Positions 25,344-50,511 of a stretch of 64,000 nucleotides of DNA are shown here, in pieces. The notes beneath the pieces are model-generated. The model was not told the DNA's origin and made no database searches. It saw only the letters and a program-made list of their open reading frames with translations. Positions within the stretch are counted from its first letter, which is position 1, and each line of letters starts with the position of its first letter. A program made the translations under genes and the position numbers. The stretch is from Cyanophora paradoxa CCMP329 (Eukaryota; Plantae; Glaucophyta): positions 186,001 to 250,000 of the forward strand of contig QPMI01000522.1 of the NCBI GenBank assembly GCA_004431415.1, given 5' to 3'.

Positions 25344-25499
25344 GGAGGCGTACGTGTACATGTCGCGGCCGGCGACGCGGCCGGCGGCGGAGCGGGCGCG
25401 GCTGCGGGCGGAGCCTCGCGATCGGAGGCGGCCCCGCGGGCCCTCGCGGCGCGCGCCGGCGCCGCCGCCGTCCACGCCGCTCGCTTCCAGGAGAACCCC
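25344..25499 (+). pseudogene. Decayed duplicate of the 3' end of gene 19734-22335 (left half; continues at 50526-50870)
   Basis: Aligns with 22199-22320 with small insertions. Confidence 0.85.
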
Positions 25500-25817
25500 A
25501 CCAATTGCGCGACCTTCCCCACTACCATTCTCAGTAAGCCCATTATCCATTTTCAAATTTCTCAGTAAGGCTCAGTAACAAATTATAAATTAGCACTGTA
25601 TTTTTCAAACATCTAACCTCTCCTTACTGAAACCAATCACGAAATCCTTCCATTCTTCATTTTTCTAATTCCTTACCATTCCCAGTAAGCCCTAAAACCC
25701 TCTCTCGATTTCTCAGTAAGGACAGTGAGACCCCTATTTTTACGAAATGTTCCCGATCGTTTCCAAACTGTTTTCAGTTACCCAAATTGAAAAATCAAGG
25801 TGACCCCCACCGATAGC
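25495..25817 (+). repeat. Left terminal inverted repeat (outer block)
   Basis: 25594-25817 is a near-identical reverse complement of ~50198-50421; outer ACCCCACCAATTGCGCG matches 50494-50511; repeated CTCAGTAAG motifs. Confidence 0.92.
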
Positions 25818-25880
25818 GTAAATCAACATATGAAATGCGTTTATCCCCACTTAAAGATTTCCCGCTATATAGCTATAAAG

Positions 25881-26204
25881 ATGCCGAGCAATCAACTCCC
25901 ACTACCCAAAAGTAAGCAATGCACTATCTGCAAAGTAGATAGACCTGCATCGTGTTTTGGTTTGCGTAAATTAAAAACTGGTAATGTCGCATTGAATCCA
26001 AGATGCATCGAGTGCAACCGCGACTATCACCTTGACCTGTATCACAAAGTCTTAAAAACGCGTCCGAAAATCGAAGTACAATCGAAAATATGCCCCGATT
26101 GCAAGATTGAGAAGCCTGCAAGCGAGTATAATAAAAAACAAAGCACGAAGGATGGTCTCTACTACAAATGCCGACAGTGTTATAGTGAGACTCGGACGAG
26201 CTAA
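25881..26204 (+). CDS. Tandem CxxC...CxxC zinc-finger protein (107 aa)
   Basis: Two repeats K.C..C....PAS.[FY]......G....C..C; ATG preceded by TATAAAG. Confidence 0.7.
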   Translation: MPSNQLPLPKSKQCTICKVDRPASCFGLRKLKTGNVALNPRCIECNRDYHLDLYHKVLKTRPKIEVQSKICPDCKIEKPASEYNKKQSTKDGLYYKCRQCYSETRTS

Positions 26205-26420
26205 TTTATGATTTTAAAATGAGATTTGTATTTTTTAAAGCAAGTTTGTGCTGCCGAAAATGCCCACCTGCACAAACTTGCGAGATCAAGGTAAGCCCCA
26301 CCGACGAAGTACGACGATAGACCACGATTAATCGCAACTGGAACCACTCGCGCCCCGCCCACTATGCAAGATACATGCCTTTCTTATGCATGCTCTATGA
26401 AAAACCAATTAATTTAGACT

Positions 26421-26684
26421 TCATTCCTCAGCAACTGTATTATATTCAATTGCTTTCTTCACAGTTCCCCTTTGGAATGCCTGTAACACAATGGCTTCCT
26501 TTGAGGTTGGTATTTGAACTCCACCTGAGATGCAAGAATGGATTTCTTTCTGAACGATCTCTTCAATTGCAATTCTTGCCCTGTTGTGGGCAGCATTATC
26601 AATCCAATCCTGAACAGAGGCGGCGCAATATTCCATTCCCAACTTTTCGATATCAGAGAGAACCACTTGGTAAATATTCGACAT
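26421..26684 (-). CDS. Small phage-type protein, probable fibre assembly chaperone
   Basis: SVQDWIDNAAHNRARIAIEEIV...GVQIPTSKEAIVLQAF resembles small proteins I recall next to C1q fibres in tailed phages; lies directly downstream of the fibres. Confidence 0.55.
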   Translation of the reverse strand: MSNIYQVVLSDIEKLGMEYCAASVQDWIDNAAHNRARIAIEEIVQKEIHSCISGGVQIPTSKEAIVLQAFQRGTVKKAIEYNTVAEE

Positions 26685-26706
26685 TTCTTAAACTACCATA
26701 AGAAAA

Positions 26707-27726
26707 TTAAACGATGCTTATTAATTCTCCTGAGAATGCTGTGCTACTTGCATAGGAAGCGACTGAATTTGTAACAAGTGTCACAAATTCGTTTTGTGCA
26801 AGATTGAGAATGCAAGAGAAACACAGTGCTTTATGTGTGCTTGAGGCATTGTGAACTTGCGAAATGCTTAATCCCCCAGGATCGACATCATTAACCCTAA
26901 GAAACAATTCAATAACAGAAGTTGTGGTTGAAGAAGTGAATACTGAAAATCGATAGTGTCCCGCAACAGGTGCTGTGAACCTTCCAGTTGATGTGCTGAA
27001 TGAGTTGGTATTGTTTACTCGAACTGTTGCCCAGTTTATAAGAACAGCAGAACTTGTAGCAGTGTGGTTATAACCAAGTTGGATGGAAAATCGTGGATGT
27101 GATGTTTTGAGATAACACCCAGTATTAAATGTCAAACTATTGGCTTCCAGAGTAGCAACAGTGTTACTATTTCGTTTCAGAAGAAGGTCTACATTGGCTC
27201 CTGTATCGATTTCCGGTGTAACAACCTTGGTTGTTGCTGTGATTGTGGACTGTGAGGCAATTGGTAGTGAAATACCAGCATTAGCAGTTACCAATTCTGT
27301 AAAGGTGCTTGTTCCTGTAATACTCACCTGATTTGCTGTTAGGGTTCCATCAACCCTTGCCCCATCTCCAATGTAGGCACCTCCACTTCTTACCACAAGA
27401 GCAGAGTTATTTATTGTGTTGTCAAAGGTTACTATTTTGGGTGTGGTGACCCCTCCCATATCATCATAAATTGTGGAATCTGAGACTATCTGACCTGATT
27501 GAACTTGGTTCTTGTTTGAAACTATTAAACCTGTGGTTCTCACCTTTCCATTATTGCGATCACATCGAATTTCTTTGCATCTTATCACAGAATTCTGAGA
27601 AAACGAATCGGCACCTGTTGTTTCAGTGCAAATAAAACCAGGGGTTGCATCTGTTACTGTGTGGTTGAGTTGATGTATTTTGGGGGCGGCGTAACAGAAC
27701 ACAGGAACAGCTATTTGAGTGGTCAT
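26707..27726 (-). CDS. Fibre protein with C-terminal C1q domain (paralogue A)
   Basis: FSTSTGRFTAPVAGHYRFS...ILNLAQNEFV C1q signature; beta-rich shaft. Confidence 0.85.
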   Translation of the reverse strand: MTTQIAVPVFCYAAPKIHQLNHTVTDATPGFICTETTGADSFSQNSVIRCKEIRCDRNNGKVRTTGLIVSNKNQVQSGQIVSDSTIYDDMGGVTTPKIVTFDNTINNSALVVRSGGAYIGDGARVDGTLTANQVSITGTSTFTELVTANAGISLPIASQSTITATTKVVTPEIDTGANVDLLLKRNSNTVATLEANSLTFNTGCYLKTSHPRFSIQLGYNHTATSSAVLINWATVRVNNTNSFSTSTGRFTAPVAGHYRFSVFTSSTTTSVIELFLRVNDVDPGGLSISQVHNASSTHKALCFSCILNLAQNEFVTLVTNSVASYASSTAFSGELISIV

Positions 27727-27748
27727 AATTTATATTATATGGATAATA

Positions 27749-28819
27749 TTATGAAGAGCTGAGAAGCATACATCCAAAGAACCATCTGATATTATAATAT
27801 GAAGAAGCTCCACCACTGACACTATATGATATTCTGATGGAATCATTAGCTTGAAGGTCAACGATTATTTCCAACCCATTGTTTGCATACACAGATGGAT
27901 AATTATTATTAACTTCAATTCCAGATGAGCTTCCGTTTTTCTGTAAAAATGTTGTTATAATACCTGGTCTTCCAGCCGTATGACAGGATCCACTAAATGT
28001 GACAAGATAGTTTCCTGTAACAGGGGCAGTAAAAAGCCCTGTCGCAGGGTCGAAATGATTCCCTTGGTTCACTATGACTCCTGTTGATGGATATATATTA
28101 ATTGAGGGCATGGTTGCAGTTATTAACCCATTTGGTTGCTGTTTTGTTGCAAAGAAACGAGGGTGACCACTTAATTTCAGATACTTGTAGTCAGGAAGTG
28201 TGAGATGTTGAACAGTTGTATTATCTGTTTGAGTAGTTGTTTGGAGAGAAAAGATTGTGTCCCCATTCCTCTTGTAATTCATGACCATGTCACTCATGTT
28301 ATCAATCTCAGGTGTGTTCAACCTTGTTGTAAGTGTGAGAGTTCCATACTGAATACTCCCTGAAAGCCCACCATTGAAGTCCATAAACCCGCCAAAACTA
28401 CTTGTCCCACTCACAGATAGTTGATTTGCTGTGACAGTTCCTGCTACATTTGCTCCATCTCCAATGTAGGCTCCTCCACTCTTGACTACAAGAGCGGAAG
28501 TATTACTTGTGTTATTGAAAGTAACTATCTGTGCTGTGGTGACTCCACCCACATTATCATATATTGCTGAATCCTGGACTACCTGACCTGCTTGAACTTG
28601 GTTTTTATTCGCGATTATAATGCCTGTGGTTCTAATCTTGCCTCCATTTCGATCACATCGAATTTCTTTGACCCTCAGTATACTGTTCTCTGTGAAAGAG
28701 GTATTACTTGTAGTTTCAGTGCAAATATTCCCAGGTGAAGAGTCGACTACTTCATGAGAGGTGCTGTGTAGTGATTTTGCTGCAAGTTCATAGTTTGGGA
28801 TTTCCAATAGAGAGGTCAT
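27749..28819 (-). CDS. Fibre protein with C-terminal C1q domain (paralogue B)
   Basis: NQGNHFDPATGLFTAPVTGNYLVTF...VDLQANDSI; N-terminal ~130 aa homologous to paralogue A. Confidence 0.85.
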   Translation of the reverse strand: MTSLLEIPNYELAAKSLHSTSHEVVDSSPGNICTETTSNTSFTENSILRVKEIRCDRNGGKIRTTGIIIANKNQVQAGQVVQDSAIYDNVGGVTTAQIVTFNNTSNTSALVVKSGGAYIGDGANVAGTVTANQLSVSGTSSFGGFMDFNGGLSGSIQYGTLTLTTRLNTPEIDNMSDMVMNYKRNGDTIFSLQTTTQTDNTTVQHLTLPDYKYLKLSGHPRFFATKQQPNGLITATMPSINIYPSTGVIVNQGNHFDPATGLFTAPVTGNYLVTFSGSCHTAGRPGIITTFLQKNGSSSGIEVNNNYPSVYANNGLEIIVDLQANDSIRISYSVSGGASSYYNIRWFFGCMLLSSS

Positions 28820-28838
28820 CTTTATATTAATCAAATAG

Positions 28839-30407
28839 TTAAATTGCGACAGCTGTGTAATGAATTGTAACAGTAATGCCTGGTCTGTCGTGTGAACTTA
28901 ATGGAACTATCTCAAGCTCACACGTGAAATAGCTGCTGTAAACATTTTTAAGAGTTACAGACATACGATAGTCGAAGGCTGTCTCGTTGTGTTGTATACC
29001 CGTTGTTACAATAGGAGGGTTAGCAAAGCTGGCGTTGAATTGGATAGTGAGATTAAAGCGAGTGTAAGGGTTTGCCCATAGATAAGGAGTATTGTAAACA
29101 TACTTACCTGCTTGAATTTTCCCATTAAAATATGTATTGAGTTGACTGGAAAGATCCGCTTCTGTAATACATCTACTAATAGTCTGATTATTGGAAGGGT
29201 TCATAGCATAGAAATTTCTTGCATAAGCATTTCCACGAACAAGTAGGGTCTTGTCCTGGTAATATGCTATGTTATCAGTGGGAATAGTCGAATTGTGGAA
29301 ACTCCAAATCACAGGAGGATTGGGCATAATATTTGGGTCATAATCGAGAAAGTAACCTGATCCAATAAGAAGGTTTGCATTTGCTGTAATGTTATTAGCT
29401 GTAAAGGGATCAAGAGTTGGTCTATTGGTCAAATCATTGTAGTTGCCCGAGAACATCGCGGGTTTATTATAGATATCTGTATTCCAATCATGAGTGTGAC
29501 CTACCAATGAAATGTTTCCGAGATCTGTTATCTGGTCTTTGGTATGAGTGTGTGCAAAGTCTGTAATCTCTGCCTTGGTGTGGGTGTGACCAACATATGC
29601 AACATTTCCGAGATCTAAAATCTCTGATTTAACATGAGTGTGAGCGAAATTCGTAATGTCTGCTCGGGTGTGATAGTGTGCAAAATCTGTTATTTGGGAC
29701 TTGGTGTGAGTGTGTGCAAAATCTGTGATTTCTGCCTTTGTGTGGGTGTGTGATCTATTATTAAGGTCGAGGAAACTCCCCGAAAATGCAACAGGGTGTA
29801 GATTTGCTGCGGTGGGTTTATTAATGAGATCATTATAGTCTCCTGTAAATGAAACGGTTTTCAGTTCCCCCCTCCCTACATAATCCGAAGGGAGATCGAT
29901 TTTAATAGGCATTATAGCTGGATCATCTGGGATCACATACTCTCCACCTGTGTGAACAACAGGGTATCTTCGAATATACATATTGGATGCACCCATGAGA
30001 GGTGCCACAATGGGCACATCCGAATTAACGAGATTGCAAGTGATGGAGAAAATGGTTTTGGGGGCAAACAGATTGCAATCAAAGGTAATCGTGGCGGGAT
30101 CAATAGTAGGATCGACGTTTGAACAGATCTGAAACATCCACCCACCCACACAGTTGCAATTTAGATTTCGAAAGACTGTTCCCGCCATTGCATCCACATA
30201 GCCAATCCCATTTGCTATGTCATATATGTGACCAAACTCGTAACCAAAAATGTCATTCCACAGGTTGGAAGCCATAGCTCCCATCACATACCCTTTTAGA
30301 TCTACTATCAGGTCATTGGATTCACTGGGTATATTGGCATGGGTTATATAAAATTGATTATCCAAGACAGCATTCTTTATTGTCGTTTCTACTATGGGTT
30401 CAGTCAT
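28839..30407 (-). CDS. Phage-like tail fibre with HxH repeats and H-type-lectin-like tip
   Basis: About seven HTHTK..ITDF-type repeats, G[DN]YNDL.N[KR]P motifs, C-terminal IQF..SFANPPIV...VTLKNV. Confidence 0.8.
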   Translation of the reverse strand: MTEPIVETTIKNAVLDNQFYITHANIPSESNDLIVDLKGYVMGAMASNLWNDIFGYEFGHIYDIANGIGYVDAMAGTVFRNLNCNCVGGWMFQICSNVDPTIDPATITFDCNLFAPKTIFSITCNLVNSDVPIVAPLMGASNMYIRRYPVVHTGGEYVIPDDPAIMPIKIDLPSDYVGRGELKTVSFTGDYNDLINKPTAANLHPVAFSGSFLDLNNRSHTHTKAEITDFAHTHTKSQITDFAHYHTRADITNFAHTHVKSEILDLGNVAYVGHTHTKAEITDFAHTHTKDQITDLGNISLVGHTHDWNTDIYNKPAMFSGNYNDLTNRPTLDPFTANNITANANLLIGSGYFLDYDPNIMPNPPVIWSFHNSTIPTDNIAYYQDKTLLVRGNAYARNFYAMNPSNNQTISRCITEADLSSQLNTYFNGKIQAGKYVYNTPYLWANPYTRFNLTIQFNASFANPPIVTTGIQHNETAFDYRMSVTLKNVYSSYFTCELEIVPLSSHDRPGITVTIHYTAVAI

Positions 30408-30444
30408 TATACTCTATTATGGAATACTACAAAAATTAAGGTTG

Positions 30445-33400
30445 TTACATAACGTTTGGAACATGTTCATATATTCTCCCTTCTCGCTGTGCCATTTCCG
30501 CCATAAAGTCTCTATCATTGTTCATCGTTTGCTCTGCCAATTCTTGTGCTCGTGATTTTTTGGGTGCTGCCCTATTTGCTGGTGGTCGGTCAGTCCTCAC
30601 AACACTAAGACCATGCCCCTCGGCTGATCTCACCTCTAACCCCACATCTCCTTCGGCTGTTTGGGTCACATTCAGTTCAGGCGTTGAGTATTTATTTCCT
30701 GCACCTGCAATGGTTCTATCTAAGCAAGCACAACAAAGAGCTCGAAATTTGTATGCAAGCACAAGCCCAAGAGCACCGAGAATCGGCAAGAGAATCATAA
30801 GCACTAACGTTCCTGGATTAGTTCCCGGTGCCCCGACTGGATTTGTAGGATTCGTGGGATTATTAGGTGGTGTGTTTGGATCTGGATTAGTTGTAGGGGG
30901 ATCTTGTGAATCGGGATCTGGGTTAGGCTGGTTCGGATTTGGATCGTTTGGTGGCGGTTCCGTCGACCCTGCTAATGATGTTGGCGCTGTGTATGCATTC
31001 GCAAACACGATGGGAGCCGTCGCTGGATTTCCTGTGGAGGATCCTGAGATTGCACCATAGGTATCTGCGAGATACTTGTATAATTCCTGTGTCACAGGTG
31101 GATTGCTCACAGATCGACACACCCAAATATTGCATGTGGTATCATAGACTGTGTCCCTGATAAAAGGCGGTAGAGCTGTCCCACTAAATGACTCAAAGAG
31201 TCCATTTCTCGATAGCAACCTATGGGCTGCATCACAGTTCCCACCCTCAAAGTACTTTGAAGCTGAAATTGCACCTTGAACATAAATATTGCATGTCGAG
31301 TGCATTCCAATGTTATTTAGGTTAGGAGTGTATCTGTCGTCGAGCCGGACAGAGCATACCCATGGGGAAGCGGTTTTAATATATTTCTTATCGCCCACTT
31401 CGATTACATCTGTATTTGGGTGGCTGTCAAGCTGAGTCCAAACAGCATCATATCTGAAAGTGTAATAAACTAAGAGACCATCTGTGGACGATGTGAAAGC
31501 AAAGAAGGTCATAAAGTCCGTGGATCCAAAGAAGTCAGCATTGGTCGATGTAAGGGTGACTCTGGGATAGCTCATGTTGACAGTCTCAGAAGGATATGGA
31601 ATATATGAGGTGTAATTACGATTGAAAAGATAATAGTGAAATCCATCTGAGACATTCGAGTGAGTGGGCAAGGTGACTGTTAAGGTCTTACTGCGATCCT
31701 CAAACGTTTTCTGTATGACAATGTTGCAAGTATTAATATATCGAGAATCGAAAAAGTAATTATTTGTGACTCTATTATCGATCAAAGTCGCATTGGTTCC
31801 ATTAAACACGAAATTCTGCCCATTGATCCTCGTAGTGTGAATGTCGGTAACATCGAGAGGATACCTTATTTTTAATCGATCTTCGGGGTCAAATCGCGGA
31901 ATAGTTCCTGTTGCCTTCCAACTGATAGTAAAGGGAGGAGCAAGGGACACTGCTGGGATAACAGAGAGATTAAATTTCGAAAAATACAACCCAACAGGGT
32001 ATGATGTCAGAGCATATGTCACTGTTGCATTTCCTACAAGTGTAAAGCCGGTGGTTGTTATGTTAGTTGCAACAAATGGGGAGTAGCCGGCTGGTGCATT
32101 TTGAAGTGATGTAGCTGACCCATCATTGACCACATACAAATTCGTGTCTGTTATTTCAATAGTAGGAGGGGAAACAAATGGTGTCTCAAATGTGAAATTA
32201 AAATTCGCTGGAACCCCTGCAAGATATCTATATGAGACCGATCCTATTTCGGATGCCTGGAATACTTTGCTTCCACTCTGCACTACATTACTTGTGTCTT
32301 TCACATTGTGGTATGAGATGCTGGGAGTTGGGGAGAGCACCAACGAAATAGCATCTGGTAAATCAGACTTTGTTATATACAGCTCTTTAAGATACTCCTT
32401 TCTAAAAGGCGCGGTCAGATCTCCAATAGTAGCCGATGAACCTGCGACCACAATATTACAGGTGTTTGCACTCAAAGAGTAAACTGTGTTCCACCTTAAA
32501 GAATTCGCCCCAAGATCGAAATTCTGTGAGAAGGGCACGATATTGCTACCTTGTAAATCTCGGTAAACCTTTACTCTGGGTTTGCTATCGAATACAGGGC
32601 TAATGTAATTGATGTTAAGAGTGAAACTAATAGTAGCTTCGGAACTCAATGAGTTGTTTCGGATGATAAGTAAATTGTATGTCTCGTTAATGACAAACGA
32701 AACCTGAAACCCTGTGGAGGTGACATTTTGGATAAATGCTTTATTAGATTCATTATTGTTATAGATAGGATTATAATAAGTAGTGTGATCCACCAATGAA
32801 ACAGTGGGTATATTCGTCTCGAAACCTGTGACACCCAACTGATCCCAAGTGAATGTATATGTAGGTTTGCCTACATAAGCGACATAGACCCCATTTGCGA
32901 GCTGCTGAGGGTATCCCTCGACAGTGTAGGTCTCAGTTTGCGAAACCGAGCGGGAAAGGTTACTATTATAGTCGGTGTAGCTGATCAGTGCATTATCATT
33001 GGTGAGAATCTGATTAGGTCGGAGTGAGTGATTAAATGGAAGGATTAAATTGGAGGCAAACATGGAAACTCCATGCACCTCTGACCATCTCAGATTCGAG
33101 AGACCAACTCGGTATGCGTTATCAATAGAAGGGTAAATGTTCCTTTTCGATAGAATATGGGCTAAGGTAATTGCAAGCGCTCCATCTGCTGCAAACAGTG
33201 CATTAATTTCGGACTGCAAAGCCGCGATCTCGGTTGTGTGGGTCGTGAGGGTTCCATCCTGGCTGGAATCTTTGGTGTTCTTGCTCCTTTCAAACTCCAA
33301 AAACGCCTTTACGATGTCCTTGCCTAAAAGATCGTTTATATTGTCTCTGGTTATGTGAACATGGTCTGTTCTCAGTGCCTGTTTCTCTGTGGTAAAAGCT

Positions 33401-34167
33401 GGAATTTCCTCTGCAAATGATATAGTCGTTTTATCAAGTGCTAAGGATCTCACATTCGGAGCATTGGCGCCAATTATATCCACAACGTTCCCATTTTCGA
33501 CAATTTCTAAGGTCGGTTTCGCGGGGTCTAATGTGAAAACACCCTCTGTTATCTGGGGAACCGATTCGCTCTTCTGAATCACAAAGGATTCGATGTTTAG
33601 GTTACAGGTTGCGACATTGGTGGCGAAAAACGACTCGGAGTTGAGCGAGTTTACATTTAGGGTATCCGTAGTGATGTTACTTGCTGTAATGTTACTCGTC
33701 GTAAGATTACCTGCTGAGAGATCATGGACGACCTCTACCTTTGTTTTCCGTGTGGATACTCCCGCTATAAGTGTGCTATTATCCACGATTCTCATAGCTG
33801 CATTTTGGAAACCGCTCTCATCTTGAATGAAGAAGTTTAAGCGACCTCTATCGAATGCTTTCGGGATGTTCCTACGATTATATCGCACCGTTTTCGGTAG
33901 CTGGCGGGTTGCCTGAATGCTGGCGACTCTGTTTCGTTCGTTATCATCAAGTAAAAAGTCGATTCCAAGTTTATGATCCCCTTTCTCGACGTTCATTAAC
34001 TGCAAAGCTGCGGGTCTGCTCGGTGTTCCACTGACTGGATCTTCGCGGTCTGCATTGTAGTTTATTCTCAGAGACCCGCGAATTTCAGTGTTTACCTGAT
34101 CAGTGTCCTCTATCTGAGTGGTCGAATTAATAACTCGTGCATCTGGTCGCGGATTCAGGAACGACAT
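30445..34167 (-). CDS. Large fibre/adhesin-like protein with C-terminal transmembrane anchor (1240 aa)
   Basis: Start MSFLNP after an AT-rich leader; I.P.....LG....RW..V fibre motifs, repeated TCNI, PNP/PT linker, TM LVLMILLPILGALGLVLAY, CCAC, short tail. Confidence 0.75.
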   Translation of the reverse strand: MSFLNPRPDARVINSTTQIEDTDQVNTEIRGSLRINYNADREDPVSGTPSRPAALQLMNVEKGDHKLGIDFLLDDNERNRVASIQATRQLPKTVRYNRRNIPKAFDRGRLNFFIQDESGFQNAAMRIVDNSTLIAGVSTRKTKVEVVHDLSAGNLTTSNITASNITTDTLNVNSLNSESFFATNVATCNLNIESFVIQKSESVPQITEGVFTLDPAKPTLEIVENGNVVDIIGANAPNVRSLALDKTTISFAEEIPAFTTEKQALRTDHVHITRDNINDLLGKDIVKAFLEFERSKNTKDSSQDGTLTTHTTEIAALQSEINALFAADGALAITLAHILSKRNIYPSIDNAYRVGLSNLRWSEVHGVSMFASNLILPFNHSLRPNQILTNDNALISYTDYNSNLSRSVSQTETYTVEGYPQQLANGVYVAYVGKPTYTFTWDQLGVTGFETNIPTVSLVDHTTYYNPIYNNNESNKAFIQNVTSTGFQVSFVINETYNLLIIRNNSLSSEATISFTLNINYISPVFDSKPRVKVYRDLQGSNIVPFSQNFDLGANSLRWNTVYSLSANTCNIVVAGSSATIGDLTAPFRKEYLKELYITKSDLPDAISLVLSPTPSISYHNVKDTSNVVQSGSKVFQASEIGSVSYRYLAGVPANFNFTFETPFVSPPTIEITDTNLYVVNDGSATSLQNAPAGYSPFVATNITTTGFTLVGNATVTYALTSYPVGLYFSKFNLSVIPAVSLAPPFTISWKATGTIPRFDPEDRLKIRYPLDVTDIHTTRINGQNFVFNGTNATLIDNRVTNNYFFDSRYINTCNIVIQKTFEDRSKTLTVTLPTHSNVSDGFHYYLFNRNYTSYIPYPSETVNMSYPRVTLTSTNADFFGSTDFMTFFAFTSSTDGLLVYYTFRYDAVWTQLDSHPNTDVIEVGDKKYIKTASPWVCSVRLDDRYTPNLNNIGMHSTCNIYVQGAISASKYFEGGNCDAAHRLLSRNGLFESFSGTALPPFIRDTVYDTTCNIWVCRSVSNPPVTQELYKYLADTYGAISGSSTGNPATAPIVFANAYTAPTSLAGSTEPPPNDPNPNQPNPDPDSQDPPTTNPDPNTPPNNPTNPTNPVGAPGTNPGTLVLMILLPILGALGLVLAYKFRALCCACLDRTIAGAGNKYSTPELNVTQTAEGDVGLEVRSAEGHGLSVVRTDRPPANRAAPKKSRAQELAEQTMNNDRDFMAEMAQREGRIYEHVPNVM

Positions 34168-34210
34168 CCTCTTTATAAACAAAGAAGATATATAAGAAGT
34201 ATATAAGATA

Positions 34211-41676: not shown

Positions 41677-41725
41677 TCCCTTTTATTTTCTCCGATATTT
41701 AATACGTTGCTTCCTTGTAGGGTCG

Positions 41726-42160: not shown

Positions 42161-42284
42161 GCGGTGAATTTCGGTGGCGCTTGTATCGAGCCAAGGGCAA
42201 AAATTGAAGGTTTCGGTAAAAGGTATATAAGGGCAAGGGAAATAATACAGAGTGACAAAAAACTATTTTCTCCGGTTATAGTAA

Positions 42285-42698
42285 ATGGCGAAACCCAAGA
42301 TTTCAAACCAAGAGGCAATGGCGGCACAGCAAGAAAAGCGCAGACCAGGGCGACCGAAGAAGGTGATCACAGAAGAGGAGAAAGCGGAGAGATTAAGACT
42401 AAAACGCGAGAAAGATGCAGAGCGGCAGCGAAACAAGCATCAGAGACAAAAGCAAGAGCGATTAGCCGCCGGAGAGGCTACTATATTCACACCGGAACAG
42501 CTACAAAAGATCGCAATTCGTAAACAGCAGCGATACCAAGACGATGAAGAGTATCGGGAGAAAATCCGAGAGAAGGCACGTGAATACCAACGAAGGAAAA
42601 GAGCGGAACGCAAGCTGAATCCGCCCGCTAAACCTCAGCCGCAAAAGCCCGCTGGGAGACCCCGAAAGCATGTCGTCGAGAACGCGAAAAATTCGTAG
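42285..42698 (+). CDS. Basic DNA-binding protein with two AT-hook-like motifs
   Basis: RRPGRPKK and KPAGRPRK flanking an R/K/E helix; AAAATTGA and TATTTTCTCCGG upstream. Confidence 0.7.
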   Translation: MAKPKISNQEAMAAQQEKRRPGRPKKVITEEEKAERLRLKREKDAERQRNKHQRQKQERLAAGEATIFTPEQLQKIAIRKQQRYQDDEEYREKIREKAREYQRRKRAERKLNPPAKPQPQKPAGRPRKHVVENAKNS

Positions 42699-42867
42699 CG
42701 GAAAGTATCCGTACGATGCAAAAAATGATTAATTTTTTACCTCCATTTTTATTCCCCGTATCGGTCAAAAAAGCACTTAAAGATTTGGCGACAAGGGTAT
42801 GAAAAGGAGAATTTGGTAGATTGCGCCGAAATTATTTTCTCCGGTTATTTTAAAAGAACTAATAGAG

Positions 42868-45800
42868 ATGCCGCGCGCAACCAACAGAATCGCTAACAAT
42901 GTTCGGGATGAAATTATCGGATACATTATGCAGGGATTGAGTCAGGATTTGCTAACCGAAGAACAGGCGCATTGGGCGATGCACAACACAATGAATCGGA
43001 AGCCCAAGCTCCAAACGCTGATCGACATTCGGGATACTCTGAATGGCATCATTAATCCCCGCGTTTTCCGCAGGGCAGAGCGGAAAGAAAAGCGTGCCGC
43101 TCGCACCCAAGTTAATATAGAAAAGCAAAAGCAAAAAGAACAAGAGGCGAAGCGTTTACAGCGCTTCGATCGCAAACGAGAACAGAAACGGGCGAAAGAA
43201 GCGAAACTCGAAGCGAAGCAGCAGAGAGGTAAACTAAAAGCGGTAGAGGATGCGATTAAACGCACTATTCTCGACCCAATCGCCGCATACGATCCGGAAA
43301 CTCTCGCAACAATTACGTTCAAGCTATGGGCGCCCGGATCCGGTGCTCGGTCGTCGGAGGTAATTGTTATTCCCGGAATTCCCGAATCAAATATGCCAGA
43401 CAGAACCTTTGTCACCTACCGCAATCTAAGAGAGACAGTTTCGGTGAGTGTGTTGCGAAGCTTTGCTCTGGCAAAAATCGATAGTGTGTATGGAATTCTC
43501 ACCGCTCAAAATCGTTATTATTCGGAAGAGAGAGATTCAATCTTCGATTTACTCGAAAACTACGATGAATTGAAGATTCGTCTGGGAACTTTCGGACAAG
43601 CATACGAGATGTTCTTCTTTAAGACACCACCAACCGAGGAACAGAAAAAACTACGCAAAGGTTTCGATGATTTTGGCGGCAGTATCGATGATGCCTTTAT
43701 AACTGTTCATGAGGTCGCGATCGATGGGGACGAAGGTGTCGAGGACGATGGAGCCGGCGCTATACCTGGCAATCGCTATGAGTTCCTGGATGAGGAGCTA
43801 ATGGACAGTATGCGATGCACCGCGATTATGAGCAAATTCACAGACTACACATTAAATCCAAACGCGTCTGAGTTCGAAGATATTATTGAGCTTCCCAAAT
43901 CATCGACATCTAACGCTTGCGGCTACGATATGATCATCTCCACATGGGGAGCGTCCATTAAGAAGTGTCAGGAGGCGCCAAAACCGCGATATACTGACTT
44001 AACTATGTCCTACGACGGTCTCTATAAATTCTTTCACGGTCGCGAACGCACACCTGGCGACTCTCTGGCTCTCACGCTCCGCCATATCGAGAAATTCTGT
44101 AAGAGAATTCAGACAGGCTTCCGCGTCTTTGATGTCGACGGAAAGTTAATACACAAATTCGCGGCGGAATCAATTAACAAAAACATCTTTCCCCGCAATA
44201 TTCACTTTATGATTCACAACAAGCACATCTATATATTCAACGATAACATCAAGTCGCTCGAAATGCGCATGGCAAAGATGGAGGTCGAAGAGCTCGATAA
44301 TCATGTTCCTAAGTCGAACTCTTCGTTAGCACTCTATAAAATTCCGACGTGTCTTACTCACGATATCTTCGCGCACACATCCAAGGATTTGTTAAAGATC
44401 ACGCAACTTAAACTATCGCCCGACGAGCGCAGTTTCATCCGCATTCTGTATACTGGGCGCGAAGGTCTGGAAGGTCTTCTATTTACGTTCCTGAAAATGC
44501 GATATGAACCCGCAGTGAAGCTAACACCATCGAAACAGATCGACAGCATCACATTCAAAGCTAATGGCTCGATGTTCTCTATCAAAGATCCACGCACAAC
44601 AGACCACTTTATTGAGCAAGATTTCGAAACAGAGGAGTATTATAATAAGGTCTGTGAAATCGGGAAGGGATTCCGCGAGTCGCTTCTAAATGCGACGAAT
44701 ATCTCACATTACAGCCCGAACATGCGCGAAATTCTCACGCACTACAAGCGATCCGCACTAAGTGGCTTTTTCTATAAGCCGAACCCGAAAGCCACCTACA
44801 CAGCTGTCGATATGGCGAAGTGCTACCCTTCGATACTGAAAGGCATGCAATATCTTCCGAAATACAATGTATTCGATGACTTCGTTCCCTTTAAAGCGGG
44901 AAGCGATATTCTCGAATACGCGATCTACTACGTGCGTGTCGTTGCGTTTGAGAGAGAGCAAGCAACTTTCGCAGACGACGAGGATATTGATTATGATGCC
45001 GCCATGTCTCGCAAGATTGATGGAATCGAAATTATACTGGATCGCGCATTTTCCGTGAGTGGTCGCTGTTATAATTTCATGACAGGCTACACTCTCTCCA
45101 TGCATTGGGCGGACGTAAAGGACAAGATAGAGATTATCGCGGTCGCGGAGCCTTCGCATTTGGTGCCCAATACGTCGATCGCTGAGATGCAAAAAGTGCT
45201 GTCAAGCGACATTCAAACCACAGATAAGAAGCACATTTTAGTGAAAGAGATCGGAATGCTCGGCAAATTCCAAGACTCGCAAACATCCACGAAAATGTTC
45301 TACAACCGTGCCGAGGCTGAGAGGTTCGCCCAAGAATGCGGAGGAACAGTAGAGGTGTTTACTTTCAATCCTAAGAATTCGAAACGTGTCAAAACTCTTA
45401 GCGAATTCGAAGGTCACATCTATTTCGTTAAGATCAGCTCCCACCGCGAGCTCGTTAACGGATTCCTTCCTATCCACTTTCATATTTACGATCGCAACCG
45501 TGCTAATATGTTTGCGCAATACAAGCGCCTGACAGCGCGCGGGCACAAGGTTGCCGGGATCAGAACGGATTGCCTATATATCGAAGGTTCATGGACAAGT
45601 AAGAAAGAGTTCGACCGAAATGCGTTTGAGAACATGGGCAAATTCAGCTATATTCCCGGGAAAAGATGCCCTGAGAATGCACTCCGCCCACCACGGGGTG
45701 TAACTCTCGAATTTCAGGATCCCGAGACACTCATTAACCGGTTCTCGCTGAGGGACGAATTTAATCCGGAGTGCTTTAATTGGGTTGCGGAGCTCCATAA

Positions 45801-47178
45801 TCGTATGCTTGTCCTTGCTGACATGCCCGGAAGTGGAAAGTCGACCCTCGGTATTAATTGCTTTGCCTCTCAAAAGTCAAATTGCTTAGTCATTTGCCCC
45901 TATAACAAACAGTGCGCAGAGCTGAGGGACTCTCTCAAAGTCCGCGGAATCGAGAATATTACCGTTCGCACTTTGTATAATGTTCTCGGGATCCGTGTCT
46001 CAAATGATCAGACCTACGAAGAGGCTATGAGCGAAAAAGACCAGAGGGCGTTTGTCTCCGAGTTCAGCCACATTATGTTCGACGAGATATTCGCGTATTC
46101 TGTAAAAGATCTCGCTAAGATCAAGTCGTTTATCGATCGCTATCCGGATATCAAATATTTGGCTAATGGCGATACCTATCAGAACGAACCGATTAATGAT
46201 GAGCTATCGGTTTCTGATCGCAAGGGCTACTATAAGCGCGCTGTGCAGAGCATGTTCCCTAACGTCCTGAGTCTACGCATTAACAAGCGGCACAAGAAGG
46301 AGACAGACCGTGAATTAATTCGGGCGATTAAAGAGGATCTCTTCGAAAACGGACTCGAAGCCGCACAGATTATCTCGAAATACGGCTTACCGACAATTAA
46401 TGATCTAAGCGCTATTCCCGACGGCTACTTTGGCATCGCTTACAGAAACGAAATGACCTTAGCCTACAACAAACTGATGCACGATAGACGCAAAGTAAAT
46501 ATCCCAACCGTAGAGGTCAATGGCATCAAATTCTACAAGGGTTTGGAAGTCGTTTGCCGCAAGTATCTACGCATTTCGCGGTCTGAGGGCGAGTCTATAA
46601 ACGCATACACGAATTACACCTATCGAATCACCAAAATCACAAAGCAAATGGTCACATTAACGGACGTTTTCGATGGTGTCACGTTTGAGGTTCCGTGCGC
46701 GATGTTAGAACATTTTTCTCTCCCTTATGCAGGAACAGGTCATTCAACGCAAGGTCTCACACTTGATTCGGGCATTGTCATTTGTGAGGCTACGTTCCGC
46801 TATACCACTCGCGAATGGTTCTATACCGCTCTCACTCGTAACCGCGATCTGTCCACTGTGCTGATTTATACACCGATTCACAAGTTCCAAGGAAAGAGCG
46901 ACTACATCGAATATCTGAAAACGAAGATCCGCGGTTATAAATGCCAGGATCAGCGTGCCGGGCGCGATTTCGATGAGGCGGATTATATTACGCCGGAGTG
47001 GATATTAGAGCGCAAGAAGCAACAGAAGGGCGCCTGTGCGATCTGTTCCCTTCCGATTCCGATTGAGCCGCAAGATCCGAATTATAGGCTCGTCGTGGAT
47101 CGCATTAACAACAGGCGCCCACATCTTAAAGACAATTGTCAACTCGCGCATCACGGGTGCAATTGCAGCAAAAAATAA
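42868..47178 (+). CDS. Family-B DNA polymerase + SF1 (Pif1/RecD-like) helicase + C-terminal HNH fusion
   Basis: Pol motifs VDMAKCYPS, K..L...IGML, RTDCL; helicase PGSGKST, FDEIF, GD..Q..P, HSTQGLT, YTALTR; CAIC...VDRINN..PH..DNC....GCN. Confidence 0.85.
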   Translation: MPRATNRIANNVRDEIIGYIMQGLSQDLLTEEQAHWAMHNTMNRKPKLQTLIDIRDTLNGIINPRVFRRAERKEKRAARTQVNIEKQKQKEQEAKRLQRFDRKREQKRAKEAKLEAKQQRGKLKAVEDAIKRTILDPIAAYDPETLATITFKLWAPGSGARSSEVIVIPGIPESNMPDRTFVTYRNLRETVSVSVLRSFALAKIDSVYGILTAQNRYYSEERDSIFDLLENYDELKIRLGTFGQAYEMFFFKTPPTEEQKKLRKGFDDFGGSIDDAFITVHEVAIDGDEGVEDDGAGAIPGNRYEFLDEELMDSMRCTAIMSKFTDYTLNPNASEFEDIIELPKSSTSNACGYDMIISTWGASIKKCQEAPKPRYTDLTMSYDGLYKFFHGRERTPGDSLALTLRHIEKFCKRIQTGFRVFDVDGKLIHKFAAESINKNIFPRNIHFMIHNKHIYIFNDNIKSLEMRMAKMEVEELDNHVPKSNSSLALYKIPTCLTHDIFAHTSKDLLKITQLKLSPDERSFIRILYTGREGLEGLLFTFLKMRYEPAVKLTPSKQIDSITFKANGSMFSIKDPRTTDHFIEQDFETEEYYNKVCEIGKGFRESLLNATNISHYSPNMREILTHYKRSALSGFFYKPNPKATYTAVDMAKCYPSILKGMQYLPKYNVFDDFVPFKAGSDILEYAIYYVRVVAFEREQATFADDEDIDYDAAMSRKIDGIEIILDRAFSVSGRCYNFMTGYTLSMHWADVKDKIEIIAVAEPSHLVPNTSIAEMQKVLSSDIQTTDKKHILVKEIGMLGKFQDSQTSTKMFYNRAEAERFAQECGGTVEVFTFNPKNSKRVKTLSEFEGHIYFVKISSHRELVNGFLPIHFHIYDRNRANMFAQYKRLTARGHKVAGIRTDCLYIEGSWTSKKEFDRNAFENMGKFSYIPGKRCPENALRPPRGVTLEFQDPETLINRFSLRDEFNPECFNWVAELHNRMLVLADMPGSGKSTLGINCFASQKSNCLVICPYNKQCAELRDSLKVRGIENITVRTLYNVLGIRVSNDQTYEEAMSEKDQRAFVSEFSHIMFDEIFAYSVKDLAKIKSFIDRYPDIKYLANGDTYQNEPINDELSVSDRKGYYKRAVQSMFPNVLSLRINKRHKKETDRELIRAIKEDLFENGLEAAQIISKYGLPTINDLSAIPDGYFGIAYRNEMTLAYNKLMHDRRKVNIPTVEVNGIKFYKGLEVVCRKYLRISRSEGESINAYTNYTYRITKITKQMVTLTDVFDGVTFEVPCAMLEHFSLPYAGTGHSTQGLTLDSGIVICEATFRYTTREWFYTALTRNRDLSTVLIYTPIHKFQGKSDYIEYLKTKIRGYKCQDQRAGRDFDEADYITPEWILERKKQQKGACAICSLPIPIEPQDPNYRLVVDRINNRRPHLKDNCQLAHHGCNCSKK

Positions 47179-47196
47179 ACAGGGTTAATTAGAAGA

Positions 47197-48367
47197 ATGT
47201 CACGGATCGTCAGAAGGGTAGCGGGAGAGGAGACAGAGACCACCATACTACCTATCGCGGTTCCTGAAACTGAGCAAGTCCCCAAAAAATCACAAAACGC
47301 CAAGCAAAATCAAATTTATTAGGAGATGTTCCTTTTAGCATTGCTAACCCGTCCTCGAAGATCGTGCGCCGCATGTATGACCCAAAGACAGGTTTTAAGA
47401 ACCCATCGGCATTGTACGAAGAGCTGAGAAAAGAGGACAAGAGCCTCACATTGAAAGAAGTGCAAGATGTCGCAGCGAAACAAGAATTTATGCAGATTAA
47501 CAAGAAGCCCCCAGCACCGACCCAAACAGCTTTTATTCCCATCACAGCCCCGCCGTGGTGCTATCAAGCGGATCTCATATTTTATCTCTCATATGGCAAT
47601 TATAATTCCGGCTACATTGCAGTCCTTACTCTCATTGAGATGACAAGCCGAAAAGCATATGCCAAGAAGTTAAAGAATAAGGAGGGCGCAAGTGTTGCCG
47701 CCGCTTTTGCGGAGATGCTCACAGATCTCCCGGCTCCGATGATTCGATTGGAGACAGATAACGGCTCAGAATTCATCGCGAAGGAGTTTCAGGAGGTCGT
47801 TAAAAGCAATGGAATAGAGCACCGCTTTAAACAGGTCGGAGATCACACTTCGCTGGGAATAATGAATCGCTTTCATTTGACCCTAAAAACGATGATAAAC
47901 AATTACTGTGTCGCATATAATACTGTGCGGTTTATGGACAAGCTGGACGACTTCGTTTTCAATTACAACAACACGATTCACCGAACCATAGGAATGAAAC
48001 CCGGGATGTTAAGCTTTCTGATATGGAGCGGATCCGAGCGGCTATTATTTCAAAGAAGAACACAATCGTAAAGGATATATTCAGCGACTTTAAGCCGGGT
48101 CTCCACGTCCGTGTATTATTGCCAAGATCAAAGTTTGATAAAGGAGCAACACAAAGGTATAGCAGAGAGGTCTACAAAATTGCGGGAAGGAGAGGAAACG
48201 CGATAGAGGTGCAAGATGCAGCGGGGAACGTAATGCCGAAGCTTTTTAAGCCGCACGAATTGCAAATCATTACAGAGGTCGAGGCAGTGGTCGAGCCCGC
48301 AGAAAATGCAATTAAAGCAGCCGAAATGGAAGCCGCTTCTATCCGGCAGGTTCAAAAGAAGGCATAG
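47197..48367 (+). CDS. Retroviral-type (rve) integrase, frameshifted in this assembly
   Basis: YDPKTGF, YQADL, TDNGSEF, NYNNTIHRTIGMKP, C-terminal VRV...FDKG....YS.EVY; -1 breaks near 47285 and 48003, and probably 48357. Confidence 0.9.
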
Positions 48368-48614
48368 ATGTCGCCGCAAGTGTTCCAAAAGGCGCATTAT
48401 TGGAAGATCGCGCAGAAAAGACAAAGAGGGCGCTGAGAGAGCTCGCTAAATTAACGATCGCGGGAACTGAGAAGCTCTCAGAGGTAAACAGTCAGCGGTG
48501 GTATAAATCATTCAAGAATCAGAGCGCAAGCTACACAGCCCCTACTACGCGCATTCTTCGGTCTTCTCGTTCATAACAAACCCGAAATTATTTTCTCCGG
48601 TAAATATAAAAGAG

Positions 48615-48928
48615 ATGGAGGGTGAAAAGTATTATGTTGATATTCCGTTTGATAAAAAAGACGTTGCGAAATCCCTCGGTGGAAAGTGGGATCGTGAGAA
48701 TTCATGCTGGTATGTCATGAAGAAAGATCACCCCCTATGCTCTCAGTTCAAAACTCTAAGCTATGAGCAAGTGTATCAAAGAAACGTGAAGGTTTACCTC
48801 GATATTCCTTATGAATTTAAGGATCAAGCGAAGGCTGAGAAAGCCCGCTGGGATCCGTTATGAAATCCTGGTATGTCATGGGTCTCGATCACCCGCTAAT
48901 GGGCAAGTTTCCGATCAAGGAGCATTAA
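48615..48928 (+). CDS. Tandem DUF5710-like domain protein (one frameshift)
   Basis: YVDIPFDKKDVAKSLGGKWD...WYV repeated as YLDIPYEFKDQAKAEKARWDP / MKSWYV after a -1 break at ~48858. Confidence 0.75.
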
Positions 48929-48953
48929 ATATATCTGTCGTTTTTTTCATTTT

Positions 48954-49344
48954 TTATGAAATTGGGAACCTTTGCTCGACCTGTAAGTCCCACTTTCGCA
49001 CTTTCAGCCTTTCCTGTATGAGATCGTTAATGTCCTGTGCTATACCCATTGTCTTCGCTTCGGCATTTGAGCCGCATGTAAAGATATCGATCGCTAATAG
49101 CCCCTGGTCGCTATAAGAGTGAGCTGTGGCATGCGACTCATCTAATAGAAAGCCAATCGCGAAACCGGGAGGGGAATTAGAGCCATCGAAAATGCATGTG
49201 TGCTGGTGCACGATGCGCATATTGCGATCTGTGATATATTGCGATAGGTTCGCTGTGATCCACTCGGCGCATGCCTCCGGGACTCAGTAAACGGCTCGGT
49301 TATATAGTCGAGCATAACGTGGTAGCCGCGGTATCGGAATCCAT
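48954..49344 (-). CDS. S-adenosylmethionine decarboxylase-like pyruvoyl enzyme (SpeD class 1B-like), frameshifted
   Basis: LLDESHATAHSY...AIDIFTCG with E-SH self-cleavage site; N-terminal GYHVMLD in an adjacent frame; two -1 breaks. Confidence 0.8.
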
Positions 49345-49597
49345 TATTAATTATTTAACAAATATTTTAATGACCATATGATATCTACATGTGCGTGCTG
49401 GTCTCATCAAGACGGTCACGGCGCTATTTTCATTTTTGAATGGCGATGAGTTGGTGAAGAGATACAGGGGTTTGACGGTTTGTATGGCGGTTTTCGGCTT
49501 TTTGTTTTTTTGTTTTTTTGATTTTGTTTGTTTTTAGTTTTTGTTCGAACTCTGGGTTTTTTTGCATGTGACACCTGTTAACAGCTGTCAGTTTTTA

Positions 49598-49683
49598 GGT
49601 ATCCCCCCTTTCTAGACCTTTCTAGTAAACCGGTAGCCCCCCTTTCTAGACCTTTCTAGTAAATCGGTATTCCCCCTTTCTAG
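49598..49683. repeat. 34-bp tandem repeat x2.5
   Basis: Unit GGTATCCCCCCTTTCTAGACCTTTCTAGTAAACC. Confidence 0.9.
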
Positions 49684-49950
49684 TGGCTTGTGATTGGTCG
49701 AATACCACAACAAAAACATTAATTACTACTTTGTGGCATGCTATATGTTTTCGGAATCGCCCCGATATGATGACCCCGAATATGTCGGTGACGCCGGTAT
49801 ATATATGTATATGTCGCCATATGAGAAAAAAAACAAAAAAACAAAAAAATCAAAGTTGTGCGGGATCACACACACGGAGGTTCGGACATATATACGAAAT
49901 ATATACATGACTTAATCGTTATAGTTTTTCATGGAACTCGCATGTAGTTT

Positions 49951-50511
49951 GCATGTATCTTGCATAGTGGGCGGGGCGCGAGTGGTTCCAGTGCATTAAA
50001 TGGAACATTTCGATTGAAGTCGCGAGTGTGTGCAGGTGGGCATTTTCGGCATGCTTGCTCATGCACAAACTTGCTTTCGTTATTTTTCATTGCTTGCGAT
50101 AAATCGATTAATCGTGTTCTATCGTCGTACTTTGTCGATTATCGTACTCTATCGGTGGGGTTCACCTTGATTTCGTATTTGATCCATCCGGATTAAGGCT
50201 ATCGGTGGGGGTCACCTTGATTTTTCAATTTGGGTAACTGTAAACAGTCTGGAAACGATCGGGAACATTTCGTAAAAATAAGGGTCTTACTGTCCTTACT
50301 GAGAAATCGAGAGAGGGTTTTAGGGCTTACTGAGAATGGTAAGGAATTAGAAAAATGAAGAATGAAAGGGTTTCGTGATTGGTTTCAGTAAGGAGAGGTT
50401 AGATGTTTGAAAAATGTAGTGTGGCTCAGTGCGAATTTGTGATTTTGTGACTGAGATTCGTGATGCTGTAAATGTGCTTATTGAAAATGGTCGCGCGCAA
50501 TTGGTGGGGGT
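49951..50511 (-). repeat. Right terminal inverted repeat (outer block plus inner modules)
   Basis: Reverse complement of 25495-25817 and of modules within 26237-26378. Confidence 0.9.

What the first reader, a model, noticed from the sequence alone, without database searches (positions are those of the whole stretch)
25495..50511. Apparently complete ~25 kb endogenous Polinton-like virus with an atypical gene repertoire
Seen: TIRs at both ends, GC drop, intron-less genes, MCP, two pentons, ATPase, integrase and replicase. Established: these genes define Polinton/PLV elements. Unusual: no adenain-type cysteine protease was recognised, and the element adds a phage-like fibre cassette, a patatin-discoidin fusion, an AdoMetDC-like gene and a PolB-helicase-HNH fusion. 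Inference: a possibly undescribed PLV lineage, still able to form particles, since the ORFs from 25881 to 47178 are uninterrupted.
Basis: partly seen in the sequence, partly recalled or inferred. Interest (0 to 1): 0.85.

Follow-up and report, generated by a model that had tools for sequence, protein, structure and literature searches.

The report
Algal Polinton-like provirus, already catalogued
This is a real 25-kb DNA virus genome integrated in an algal chromosome (most likely Cyanophora paradoxa), but its capsid gene and most of its odd gene set were already listed in published surveys, and this copy's integrase gene is broken as assembled, so it likely depends on sister copies to move.

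Summary
The element is real and 31 bp longer than reported: 25479-50526 (25,048 bp, 44% GC in 64-68% flanks). It has terminal inverted repeats, a 6-bp target-site duplication (CACGCC) and an uninterrupted paralogous host site 3 kb upstream. It encodes a double-jelly-roll capsid, two probable pentons, an A32 ATPase, a fibre cluster, a patatin, a Tlr1-like polymerase-helicase-nuclease replicase and an rve integrase. It is not undescribed. Near-identical capsid proteins are listed as Cyanophora paradoxa endogenous-virus capsids (Bellas 2023, Table S2). Bulzu 2025 (Table S6) tabulates 156 glaucophyte elements: 0 proteases, 89 lipases, 66 AdoMetDCs, 85 rve integrases. Lacking a protease defines PLVs, and the replicase fusion is a known type. 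The structural arm is open and differs from sister copies mostly at silent sites (21 of 31). The integrase, DUF5710 and AdoMetDC genes are frameshifted as assembled. Still open: the capsid lineage is unnamed and unplaced. Not found in the papers I searched: a four-fold promoter-like motif on the replication arm, and a C1q fibre head plus partner gene taken from tailed phages. Verdict: already known kind and family, thinly described.

The parts
25473..25478 (+). Left target-site duplication CACGCC
50527..50532 (+). Right target-site duplication CACGCC
22199..22355 (+). Paralogous host segment with the uninterrupted (empty) site; single CACGCC at 22303
   Evidence: matches 25343-25478 and then 50526-50585
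25479..26378 (+). Left TIR (core 25479-25824), interrupted by an insert of about 420-480 bp
   Evidence: contigs skipping 25820-26243
49951..50526 (-). Right TIR (core 50191-50526)
25830..26204 (+). Zinc-binding N-terminal fragment of an HNH/endonuclease VII-type nuclease, inside the left TIR
   Evidence: PHROGs E 6.5e-10
26421..26684 (-). 87-aa protein homologous to small phage proteins encoded right after C1q-headed fibres; likely fibre assembly partner
26707..27726 (-). Fibre with C1q head (A)
   Evidence: Pfam C1q E 1.7e-9
27749..28819 (-). Fibre with C1q head (B), paralogue of A (44%)
28839..30407 (-). Fibre with phage-tail repeats and C-terminal H-lectin-like domain
   Evidence: PTR E 1.6e-5, H_lectin E 3e-4, both under Pfam cut-off; repeat D13
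30445..34167 (-). 1240-aa beta-rich protein with a Pro/Asn linker and one predicted transmembrane helix (residues 1120-1138)
   Evidence: no family hit beyond weak H_lectin
34211..35704 (+). Patatin phospholipase with intact GGGxRG, GxSxG and DG motifs; C-terminal discoidin-like domain by eye only
   Evidence: discoidin not detected
35711..36556 (-). Probable minor capsid protein 1
   Evidence: similar to ORF 36573 (E 1e-7); motif by eye
36573..37499 (+). Probable minor capsid protein 2
   Evidence: DUF5901 E 0.0011
37547..38860 (+). [quoted passage not shown]
   Evidence: model pLDDT 63; Z 23.9 to PBCV-1 capsid; Foldseek E 1e-17; PMC10120064 Table S2
38976..39923 (+). Free-standing homing-type endonuclease present in a minority of copies
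   Evidence: phrog_559 E 3e-71; depth 9-15 times lower than the neighbouring bin in three runs
39969..40835 (+). A32-like packaging ATPase
   Evidence: Pox_A32 E 1.6e-10; motifs
40838..41521 (+). 227-aa ORF, no family
41726..42160 (+). 144-aa ORF, no family; preceded by motif at 41684
42285..42698 (+). Basic AT-hook protein (pI 10.6); preceded by motif at 42264
42868..47178 (+). Tlr1-like replicase, 1436 aa: candidate vOTU (Cys351, His453), PolB palm (D648, D901), SF1B helicase (Walker A 988-991), C-terminal endonuclease VII/HNH; preceded by motif at 42833
47373..48367 (+). rve integrase, split by a frameshift near 48005-48020; D67 and D129 present, Asn at the third catalytic position (165)
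48615..48930 (+). DUF5710 repeat protein, frameshifted near 48860; preceded by motif at 48589
48954..49350 (-). Class 1b AdoMetDC-like gene with the ESH self-cleavage motif; N-terminus out of frame (two breaks near 49285 and 49345)

Best explanation
This is one copy of a multi-copy endogenous Polinton-like virus, bounded by inverted repeats and a 6-bp target-site duplication, in a host that is most likely the glaucophyte Cyanophora paradoxa; the family likely cycles between a silenced provirus and virus particles, probably when a giant virus infects the cell. Shown: the ends, the duplication, the empty paralogous site, the gene set, the capsid fold, many diverged sister sequences in the same organism, and an excess of silent differences. 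Inferred steps: (1) the rve integrase inserted a linear genome and made the 6-bp duplication; (2) the host keeps it silent by CpG methylation; (3) on induction the Tlr1-like replicase copies it by protein priming from the TIRs, the helicase unwinding ahead and the vOTU-like domain cutting off the terminal protein; (4) the A32 ATPase fills a capsid of MCP and two pentons that needs no maturation protease; (5) C1q and lectin fibres bind cell-surface sugars and the patatin breaches the membrane; (6) AdoMetDC raises polyamine supply for DNA packaging. This copy would need an integrase from a sister copy if its frameshift is real. Within this reading I put helper-virus dependence at about 55%, autonomous nuclear replication at about 35%, and neither at 10%.
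For: Ends, TSD and empty site. An independent contig end starts with the same GCTCGC in the same register but in another flank (run X18, table 7). Single contigs over capsid genes are 26-49 times deeper than the flank contig in runs X3 and X7 (rough, not a copy number). All 24 listed runs carry one organism label, 17 holding half or more of the words. Of the 40 best-supported variant sites shown, 31 are coding; 21 are silent and none makes a stop, against 26% silent expected (p 1e-6). MCP differs by eye at 3 of 308 residues from a published C. paradoxa EVE capsid, and the 37% relative P0002 is labelled C. paradoxa. Published gene counts for glaucophyte elements match. Replicase architecture matches PMC11161782. 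No RNA polymerase or transcription-factor family was hit among 20 ORFs. C. paradoxa carries methylated giant-virus insertions (PMC12344493, passages).
Against: No listed contig bridges the left junction, and no reads cover 44,000-52,500, so the right junction and the frameshifts are unchecked. The replicase model failed (pLDDT 34), so vOTU and terminal-protein domains are not shown. Motif B of the palm has Val where Asn is usual (recalled consensus), also in P0007. The integrase has Asn in place of the third catalytic Glu. The same replicase type occurs in the autonomous virus TsV-S1, which argues against helper dependence. The mimiviral early promoter AAAATTGA occurs only twice. The variant test uses 40 of 1138 rows, chosen by the tool for support, and the sites are not independent.
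Confidence: 0.8

Rival explanations
1. An autonomous, nucleus-replicating lytic or temperate PLV like TsV-S1/TsV-N1 that uses host RNA polymerase II and needs no giant virus. Same element, different lifestyle.
For: Same replicase type as TsV-S1. Own fibres and lipase for entry, an AT-hook protein, and a motif upstream of four replication-arm genes that matches none of the giant-virus motifs I counted.
Against: Intergenic spacers of 16-47 nt, including divergent pairs, with TATA-like words within 20 nt of the start in 8 of 11 structural-side genes against 2 of 58 background windows look tight for host polymerase II (inference). Transpovirons with this replicase depend on mimiviruses.
Confidence: 0.3
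2. A former virus now spreading only as a self-synthesising transposon, its capsid genes decaying.
For: Four frameshifts on the right arm, TIR arms only 84.5% alike at the ends, nuclease inserts. Published sister MCPs include a frameshifted one.
Against: All structural ORFs are open, and differences between copies are mostly silent, also in fibre genes (21 of 31). CpG observed/expected is 1.11, so no methylation erosion. PMC10120064 shows that such frameshifts are often assembly errors in multi-copy EVEs.
Confidence: 0.12
3. Assembly chimera of a co-cultured free virus with host DNA.
For: No bridging contig among those listed.
Against: Exact 6-bp duplication at a site that is whole in the paralogue 3 kb away; present in runs of 2012, 2019 and 2024 of one organism.
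Confidence: 0.03

Closest known systems
Cyanophora paradoxa endogenous PLVs (Bellas et al. 2023, PMC10120064; Bulzu et al. 2025, PMC12220804)
   Same: MCP about 99% identical by eye to Table S2 entry gene_3321. 366 MCPs in two unnamed clusters. Group totals of 156 elements: 0 protease, 139 A32 ATPase, 85 rve, 34 S1H, 89 lipase, 66 AdoMet_dc. PTR-PTR-H_lectin fibre and patatin-discoidin named in the text.
   Different: Those papers give counts, not an anatomy. C1q heads, the phage partner gene, the promoter-like motif and the empty site were not in the parts I read. Their per-element annotation table (Zenodo) was not visible to me.
Tlr1 element and Tlr1-like replicase PLVs (PMC5499653, PMC11161782)
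   Same: rve integrase plus a vOTU-palm-SF1 helicase replicase ending in a homing nuclease; linear genome with TIRs; first Asp of motif C replaced.
   Different: C-terminal nuclease is endonuclease VII/HNH, not GIY-YIG (both are reported). The MCP has no named PLV relative in my searches.
Gezel-14T / PgVV (10.1101/2022.07.28.501842)
   Same: MCP, mCP, ATPase, phage-like fibre and lipase; the last two are virion components there.
   Different: Gezel has a tyrosine recombinase and TVpol and uses the AAAATTGA early promoter, which is not enriched here.
Maverick/Polintons (Polintoviricetes)
   Same: TIRs, 6-bp TSD, rve integrase, MCP, mCP, ATPase.
   Different: No adenain protease; no stand-alone pPolB.
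OmPLV of Oxyrrhis marina (PMC12721341)
   Same: About 25 kb, low GC, no protease, divergent MCP, large polymerase-helicase fusion.
   Different: Opposite domain order (helicase first, exonuclease kept), tyrosine recombinase, no TSD.

Membership tests
Polinton-like viruses (definition of PMC4642659) | Double-jelly-roll MCP | tested here: met
   Z 23.9, rmsd 3.5, 326 aligned to PBCV-1 capsid; ranks 1-16 all double-jelly-roll capsids or scaffolds
Polinton-like viruses (definition of PMC4642659) | [quoted passage not shown] | tested here: inconclusive
   Two paralogous ORFs beside the MCP (E 1e-7), DUF5901 E 0.0011; not folded
Polinton-like viruses (definition of PMC4642659) | A32-like packaging ATPase | tested here: met
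   Pox_A32 E 1.6e-10 above cut-off
Polinton-like viruses (definition of PMC4642659) | No capsid maturation protease | tested here: met
   No convincing protease hit in 20 ORFs against Pfam, NCBIfam, PHROGs (one E 0.026 Prp hit on a penton treated as noise); the unnamed ORFs were not folded
Polinton-like viruses (definition of PMC4642659) | Genome of about 15-40 kb with terminal inverted repeats | tested here: met
   25,048 bp, TIRs
Class Aquintoviricetes or any named PLV group (PgVV, TsV, GKS1-3, Trimcap, Zora, Zephyr) | MCP/ATPase placement in the group | not testable with these tools
   Group HMMs not available. Only 6 relatives among 1.84 billion representatives; published PLV MCP profiles hit 2 of 156 glaucophyte elements; listed outside named groups in Table S4
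Maverick/Polintons (Polintoviricetes) | Stand-alone protein-primed PolB with DTD motif | tested here: not met
   Palm is fused to an SF1 helicase and motif C reads RTD
Maverick/Polintons (Polintoviricetes) | Adenain-type cysteine protease | tested here: not met
Maverick/Polintons (Polintoviricetes) | rve integrase and 6-bp TSD | tested here: met
   rve E 1e-13, TSD; the gene is frameshifted here
Tlr1-like replicases | PolB palm followed by SF1B helicase and C-terminal homing nuclease | tested here: met
   Atlas nearest clusters carry DNA_pol_B_2 in 14-45% of members, a lead; motifs; Dda-like helicase E 2e-13, endonuclease VII E 5e-9
Tlr1-like replicases | vOTU domain with catalytic Cys and His before the palm | tested here: inconclusive
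   Cys351 and His453 conserved in the one relative P0007; no family hit; model failed
Virophages (Virophaviricetes) | Virophage-type MCP and maturation protease | tested here: not met
   No protease; Sputnik Z 13.2 and mavirus Z 12.3 rank well below giant-virus capsids. This concerns the taxon, not the lifestyle
Mriyavirus-related small viruses (Zora, VC134, VC218) | Mriya48, HUH endonuclease, VLTF2/3 | tested here: inconclusive
   No HUH or VLTF family hit; no Mriya48 profile available

The most novel reading that the evidence does not exclude
The glaucophyte elements form a deep capsid lineage of their own, outside every named PLV group, and are inducible proviruses tuned to a not-yet-isolated glaucophyte giant virus: the TATTTTCTCCG motif is that helper's early promoter, and the fibre heads with their assembly partner were captured as a working cassette from tailed phages of freshwater bacteria. 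This would give the first experimental handle on a DNA virus system in glaucophytes.
Probability: 0.3. Interest if true: 0.6.

Novelty: already known. Interest (0 to 1): 0.3.

Why it matters
As a discovery it is modest: the family was catalogued in 2023 and its genes counted in 2025. Its value is as a well-bounded example. C. paradoxa is culturable, carries hundreds of these capsid genes and also giant-virus insertions, so one can test directly whether endogenous PLVs with a Tlr1-like replicase are helper-dependent or autonomous. The capsid is too divergent for standard PLV profiles, so placing it may add a branch to the classification of small double-jelly-roll viruses.

Tried and rejected
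No whole genome is held, so copies could not be counted or compared. No close relatives in IMG/VR for MCP, replicase, ATPase, integrase or the TIR end, nor in JGI metagenomes for MCP. The integrase found only 9 bacterial-type transposase loci (one read). These scans find close relatives only. The palm-region search gave nothing. The replicase model (3 sequences, pLDDT 34) was not used. Discoidin was not detected by Pfam or PDB sequence search. No PDB sequence hit for MCP or two fibres. No RNA holder listed; run X18, only guessed to be RNA, gave short pieces at depth 2-5 over capsid genes, not taken as expression. The left end does not fold better than shuffles (z 0.78). A second repeated word, CTGTCGCAATTT, has 2 exact copies; most of its looser matches lie inside genes, and it was dropped. 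The PLV-like contig L010 shares the AdoMetDC (46%) but not the capsid (hhalign probability 0.6%). Earlier scan notes: nothing in three look-ups. Paper searches: 'polinton' with 'C1q' gave 1 unrelated paper; 'polinton' with 'adenosylmethionine decarboxylase' gave 0; 'Cyanophora' with 'polinton' gave 5. Subscription papers and bioRxiv supplements are outside these searches.
Full report
1. Observation. GC falls to 0.443 between flanks of 0.637 and 0.681. The inverted repeats are real: 25479-25824 pairs with 50191-50526 at 84.5% over 349 columns, with a 231-nt core at 95%. Shorter pieces extend the arms to about 26378 and 49951. Both ends begin GCTCGC and are flanked by CACGCC, a 6-bp duplication. 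A paralogous host segment at 22199-22355 matches the left flank and then the right flank with a single CACGCC, so it is the empty site. A contig in run X18 starts with the same terminal word in the same register but in another flank (table 7). The element is 25479-50526, 25,048 bp. No listed contig bridges the left junction, and no reads cover the right arm. Integration therefore rests on the duplication and the empty site, which a chimera would not produce.

2. Copies. All 24 listed runs carry one organism label; 17 hold half or more of the sampled words. In the two runs that cover the flank, single contigs over capsid genes are 26-28 (X3) and 35-49 (X7) times deeper than the flank contig. 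That is not a copy number, and GC bias inflates it, but it points to tens of related copies. The nuclease ORF 38976-39923 is 9-15 times shallower than the neighbouring bin in three runs, so it is a variable insert. Of the 40 variant sites shown (1098 more not shown), 31 are coding: 21 silent, 10 replacing, none a stop, against 26% silent expected (p 1e-6). The copies thus diverged under purifying selection, also in fibre genes. The sample is small and chosen by support.

3. Genes. The MCP model (pLDDT 63) matches the PBCV-1 capsid at Z 23.9, with Sputnik at 13.2 and mavirus at 12.3; Foldseek agrees. By sequence it is isolated: 1 hit among 5.8 billion clusters and 6 among 1.84 billion representatives. 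The ATPase, integrase, patatin, AdoMetDC, two C1q heads and DUF5710 pass Pfam cut-offs; PTR and H-lectin do not. The two pentons are paralogous but unfolded. The patatin keeps its catalytic motifs; its discoidin tail is by eye only. The 1436-aa replicase has palm motifs, a complete SF1B helicase and an endonuclease VII end. A Cys351/His453 pair before the palm is kept in its one relative, P0007, where a vOTU protease is expected, but the model failed. Motif B has Val at the usual Asn position (recalled consensus) in both proteins. The right arm is broken as assembled: integrase near 48005-48020, DUF5710 near 48860, AdoMetDC near 49285 and 49345. The integrase also has Asn at the third catalytic position, aligned to Glu in 8 of 9 transposase relatives. 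PMC10120064 warns that such breaks are often assembly errors in multi-copy elements.

4. What is already in print. PMC10120064 (Bellas 2023; I read parts 2-3 of 7, passages and rows of Tables S1, S2, S4) lists C. paradoxa capsids. One differs from residues 130-437 here at 3 of 308 positions, another at 1 position in its first 240, both compared by eye. It counts 366 MCPs in two clusters outside the named groups. P0002 is labelled C. paradoxa. PMC12220804 (Bulzu 2025; section 13, passages, Table S6) names a PTR-PTR-H_lectin fibre in a C. paradoxa PLV and patatin-discoidin fusions in glaucophyte PLVs. It tabulates 156 glaucophyte elements with 0 proteases, 139 ATPases, 85 rve, 34 S1H helicases, 89 lipases and 66 AdoMetDCs; AdoMetDC also occurs in 72 cryptophyte elements; only 2 of the 156 hit their PLV capsid profiles. 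PMC4642659 (passages) defines PLVs by lacking the protease. PMC11161782 (section 9, passages) and PMC5499653 (part 2 of 5) describe the TP-vOTU-palm-S1H replicase ending in GIY-YIG or HNH. PMC8502044 (passages) noted related contigs in C. paradoxa data. An unrelated 18-kb PLV-like contig, L010, carries a full-length AdoMetDC 46% identical to this one; giant-virus bins come next. Class 1b AdoMetDCs of algal viruses are active, and some phage homologues switched substrate (PMC9992855, passages). The 2026 framework preprint (10.64898/2026.06.19.733378; passages, part 3 of 5) does not mention Cyanophora in its main text; its supplements were closed and may place this capsid. I also read parts 1-3 of PMC12721341 and of 10.64898/2026.10.13.758929, and passages of 10.1101/2022.07.28.501842, 10.1101/2025.10.09.676808 and PMC12344493.

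5. What I did not find in print. First, TATTTTCTCCG occurs exactly four times in the window, always on the plus strand 21-42 bases before the start of ORFs 41726, 42285, 42868 and 48615 (1 of 100 shuffles reached 4 even with a mismatch allowed; the word was picked by eye). Structural-side genes instead have a TATA-like word within 20 bases of the start in 8 of 11 cases, against 2 of 58 background windows (pattern chosen after looking). This suggests early and late promoter classes. Second, the 87-aa ORF after the C1q fibres is 42-54% identical to small phage proteins. The gene just upstream ends in a C1q-like head in 17 of 21 scorable loci (24 examined, 3 at contig edges; 11 distinct sequences; by eye) and in both named phages. 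The head and its partner look captured together. Third, the 1240-aa protein ends in a transmembrane helix.

6. Mechanism. Shown: a bounded, integrase-type insertion of a multi-copy virus with an open, selected structural arm. Inferred: silencing by CpG methylation, which marks viral genes in this alga; protein-primed replication; packaging without a maturation protease; entry by lectin-type fibres and lipase, as in Gezel-14T virions. No RNA polymerase is encoded, spacers are as short as 16 bases between divergent genes, and the host has giant-virus insertions, so I favour helper dependence (about 55%). The autonomous TsV-S1 uses the same replicase type, so autonomy stays at about 35%.

7. Verdict. 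Observation confirmed with corrected ends; interpretation partly supported. It works like, and meets the tested features of, a Polinton-like virus; it fails two defining features of Polintons. The family is already catalogued, its unusual genes included. The capsid lineage remains unplaced, which is the one open point of real interest. Interest 0.3.

Noticed in passing
window 25479-25495: The first 17 bases of the left TIR differ from the right TIR at 5 positions and contain GGAGAACCC, which also follows the TSD in the host flank. Could be chance, gene conversion or a polishing artefact from empty-site reads.
   Followed up: no
window 25496-25824, run X18 record 9: A 613-bp contig holding a TIR end and a different flank has depth 437, about 100 times the other element pieces in that run; perhaps a host transcript running into a TIR or a short derivative.
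   Followed up: no
window 30445-30810: The largest fibre-like protein ends in a Pro/Asn linker, a transmembrane helix and a 100-residue tail, like a type I membrane protein but with no evident signal peptide.
   Followed up: partly
window 22199-22467 and 25343-25478 / 50527-50890: The element sits in a local host duplication; both copies continue into a similar G-rich tract.
   Followed up: partly
window 49598-49699: Three tandem 34-nt repeats just inside the right TIR, possibly an origin or protein-binding array.
   Followed up: no
window 51168-51482: Small host RING-finger ORF right of the element (Pfam E 2.5e-6).
   Followed up: partly
window 4195-8275 and 23485-23572: Lower-GC host stretches with inverted repeats (6151-6390 with 7997-8275; palindromes at 4478-4665 and 23485-23572), probably small DNA transposons.
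   Followed up: no
L010 (IMG/VR contig, 18 kb): PLV-like genome with a repeat-rich fibre, primase-helicase, ATPase, capsid genes and an intact class 1b AdoMetDC; capsid unrelated to this one at the sequence level.
   Followed up: partly
L012 (giant-virus bin): Carries both an AdoMetDC and a homologue of the variable endonuclease ORF 38976-39923 (E 2e-46), hinting at gene exchange with giant viruses.
   Followed up: no
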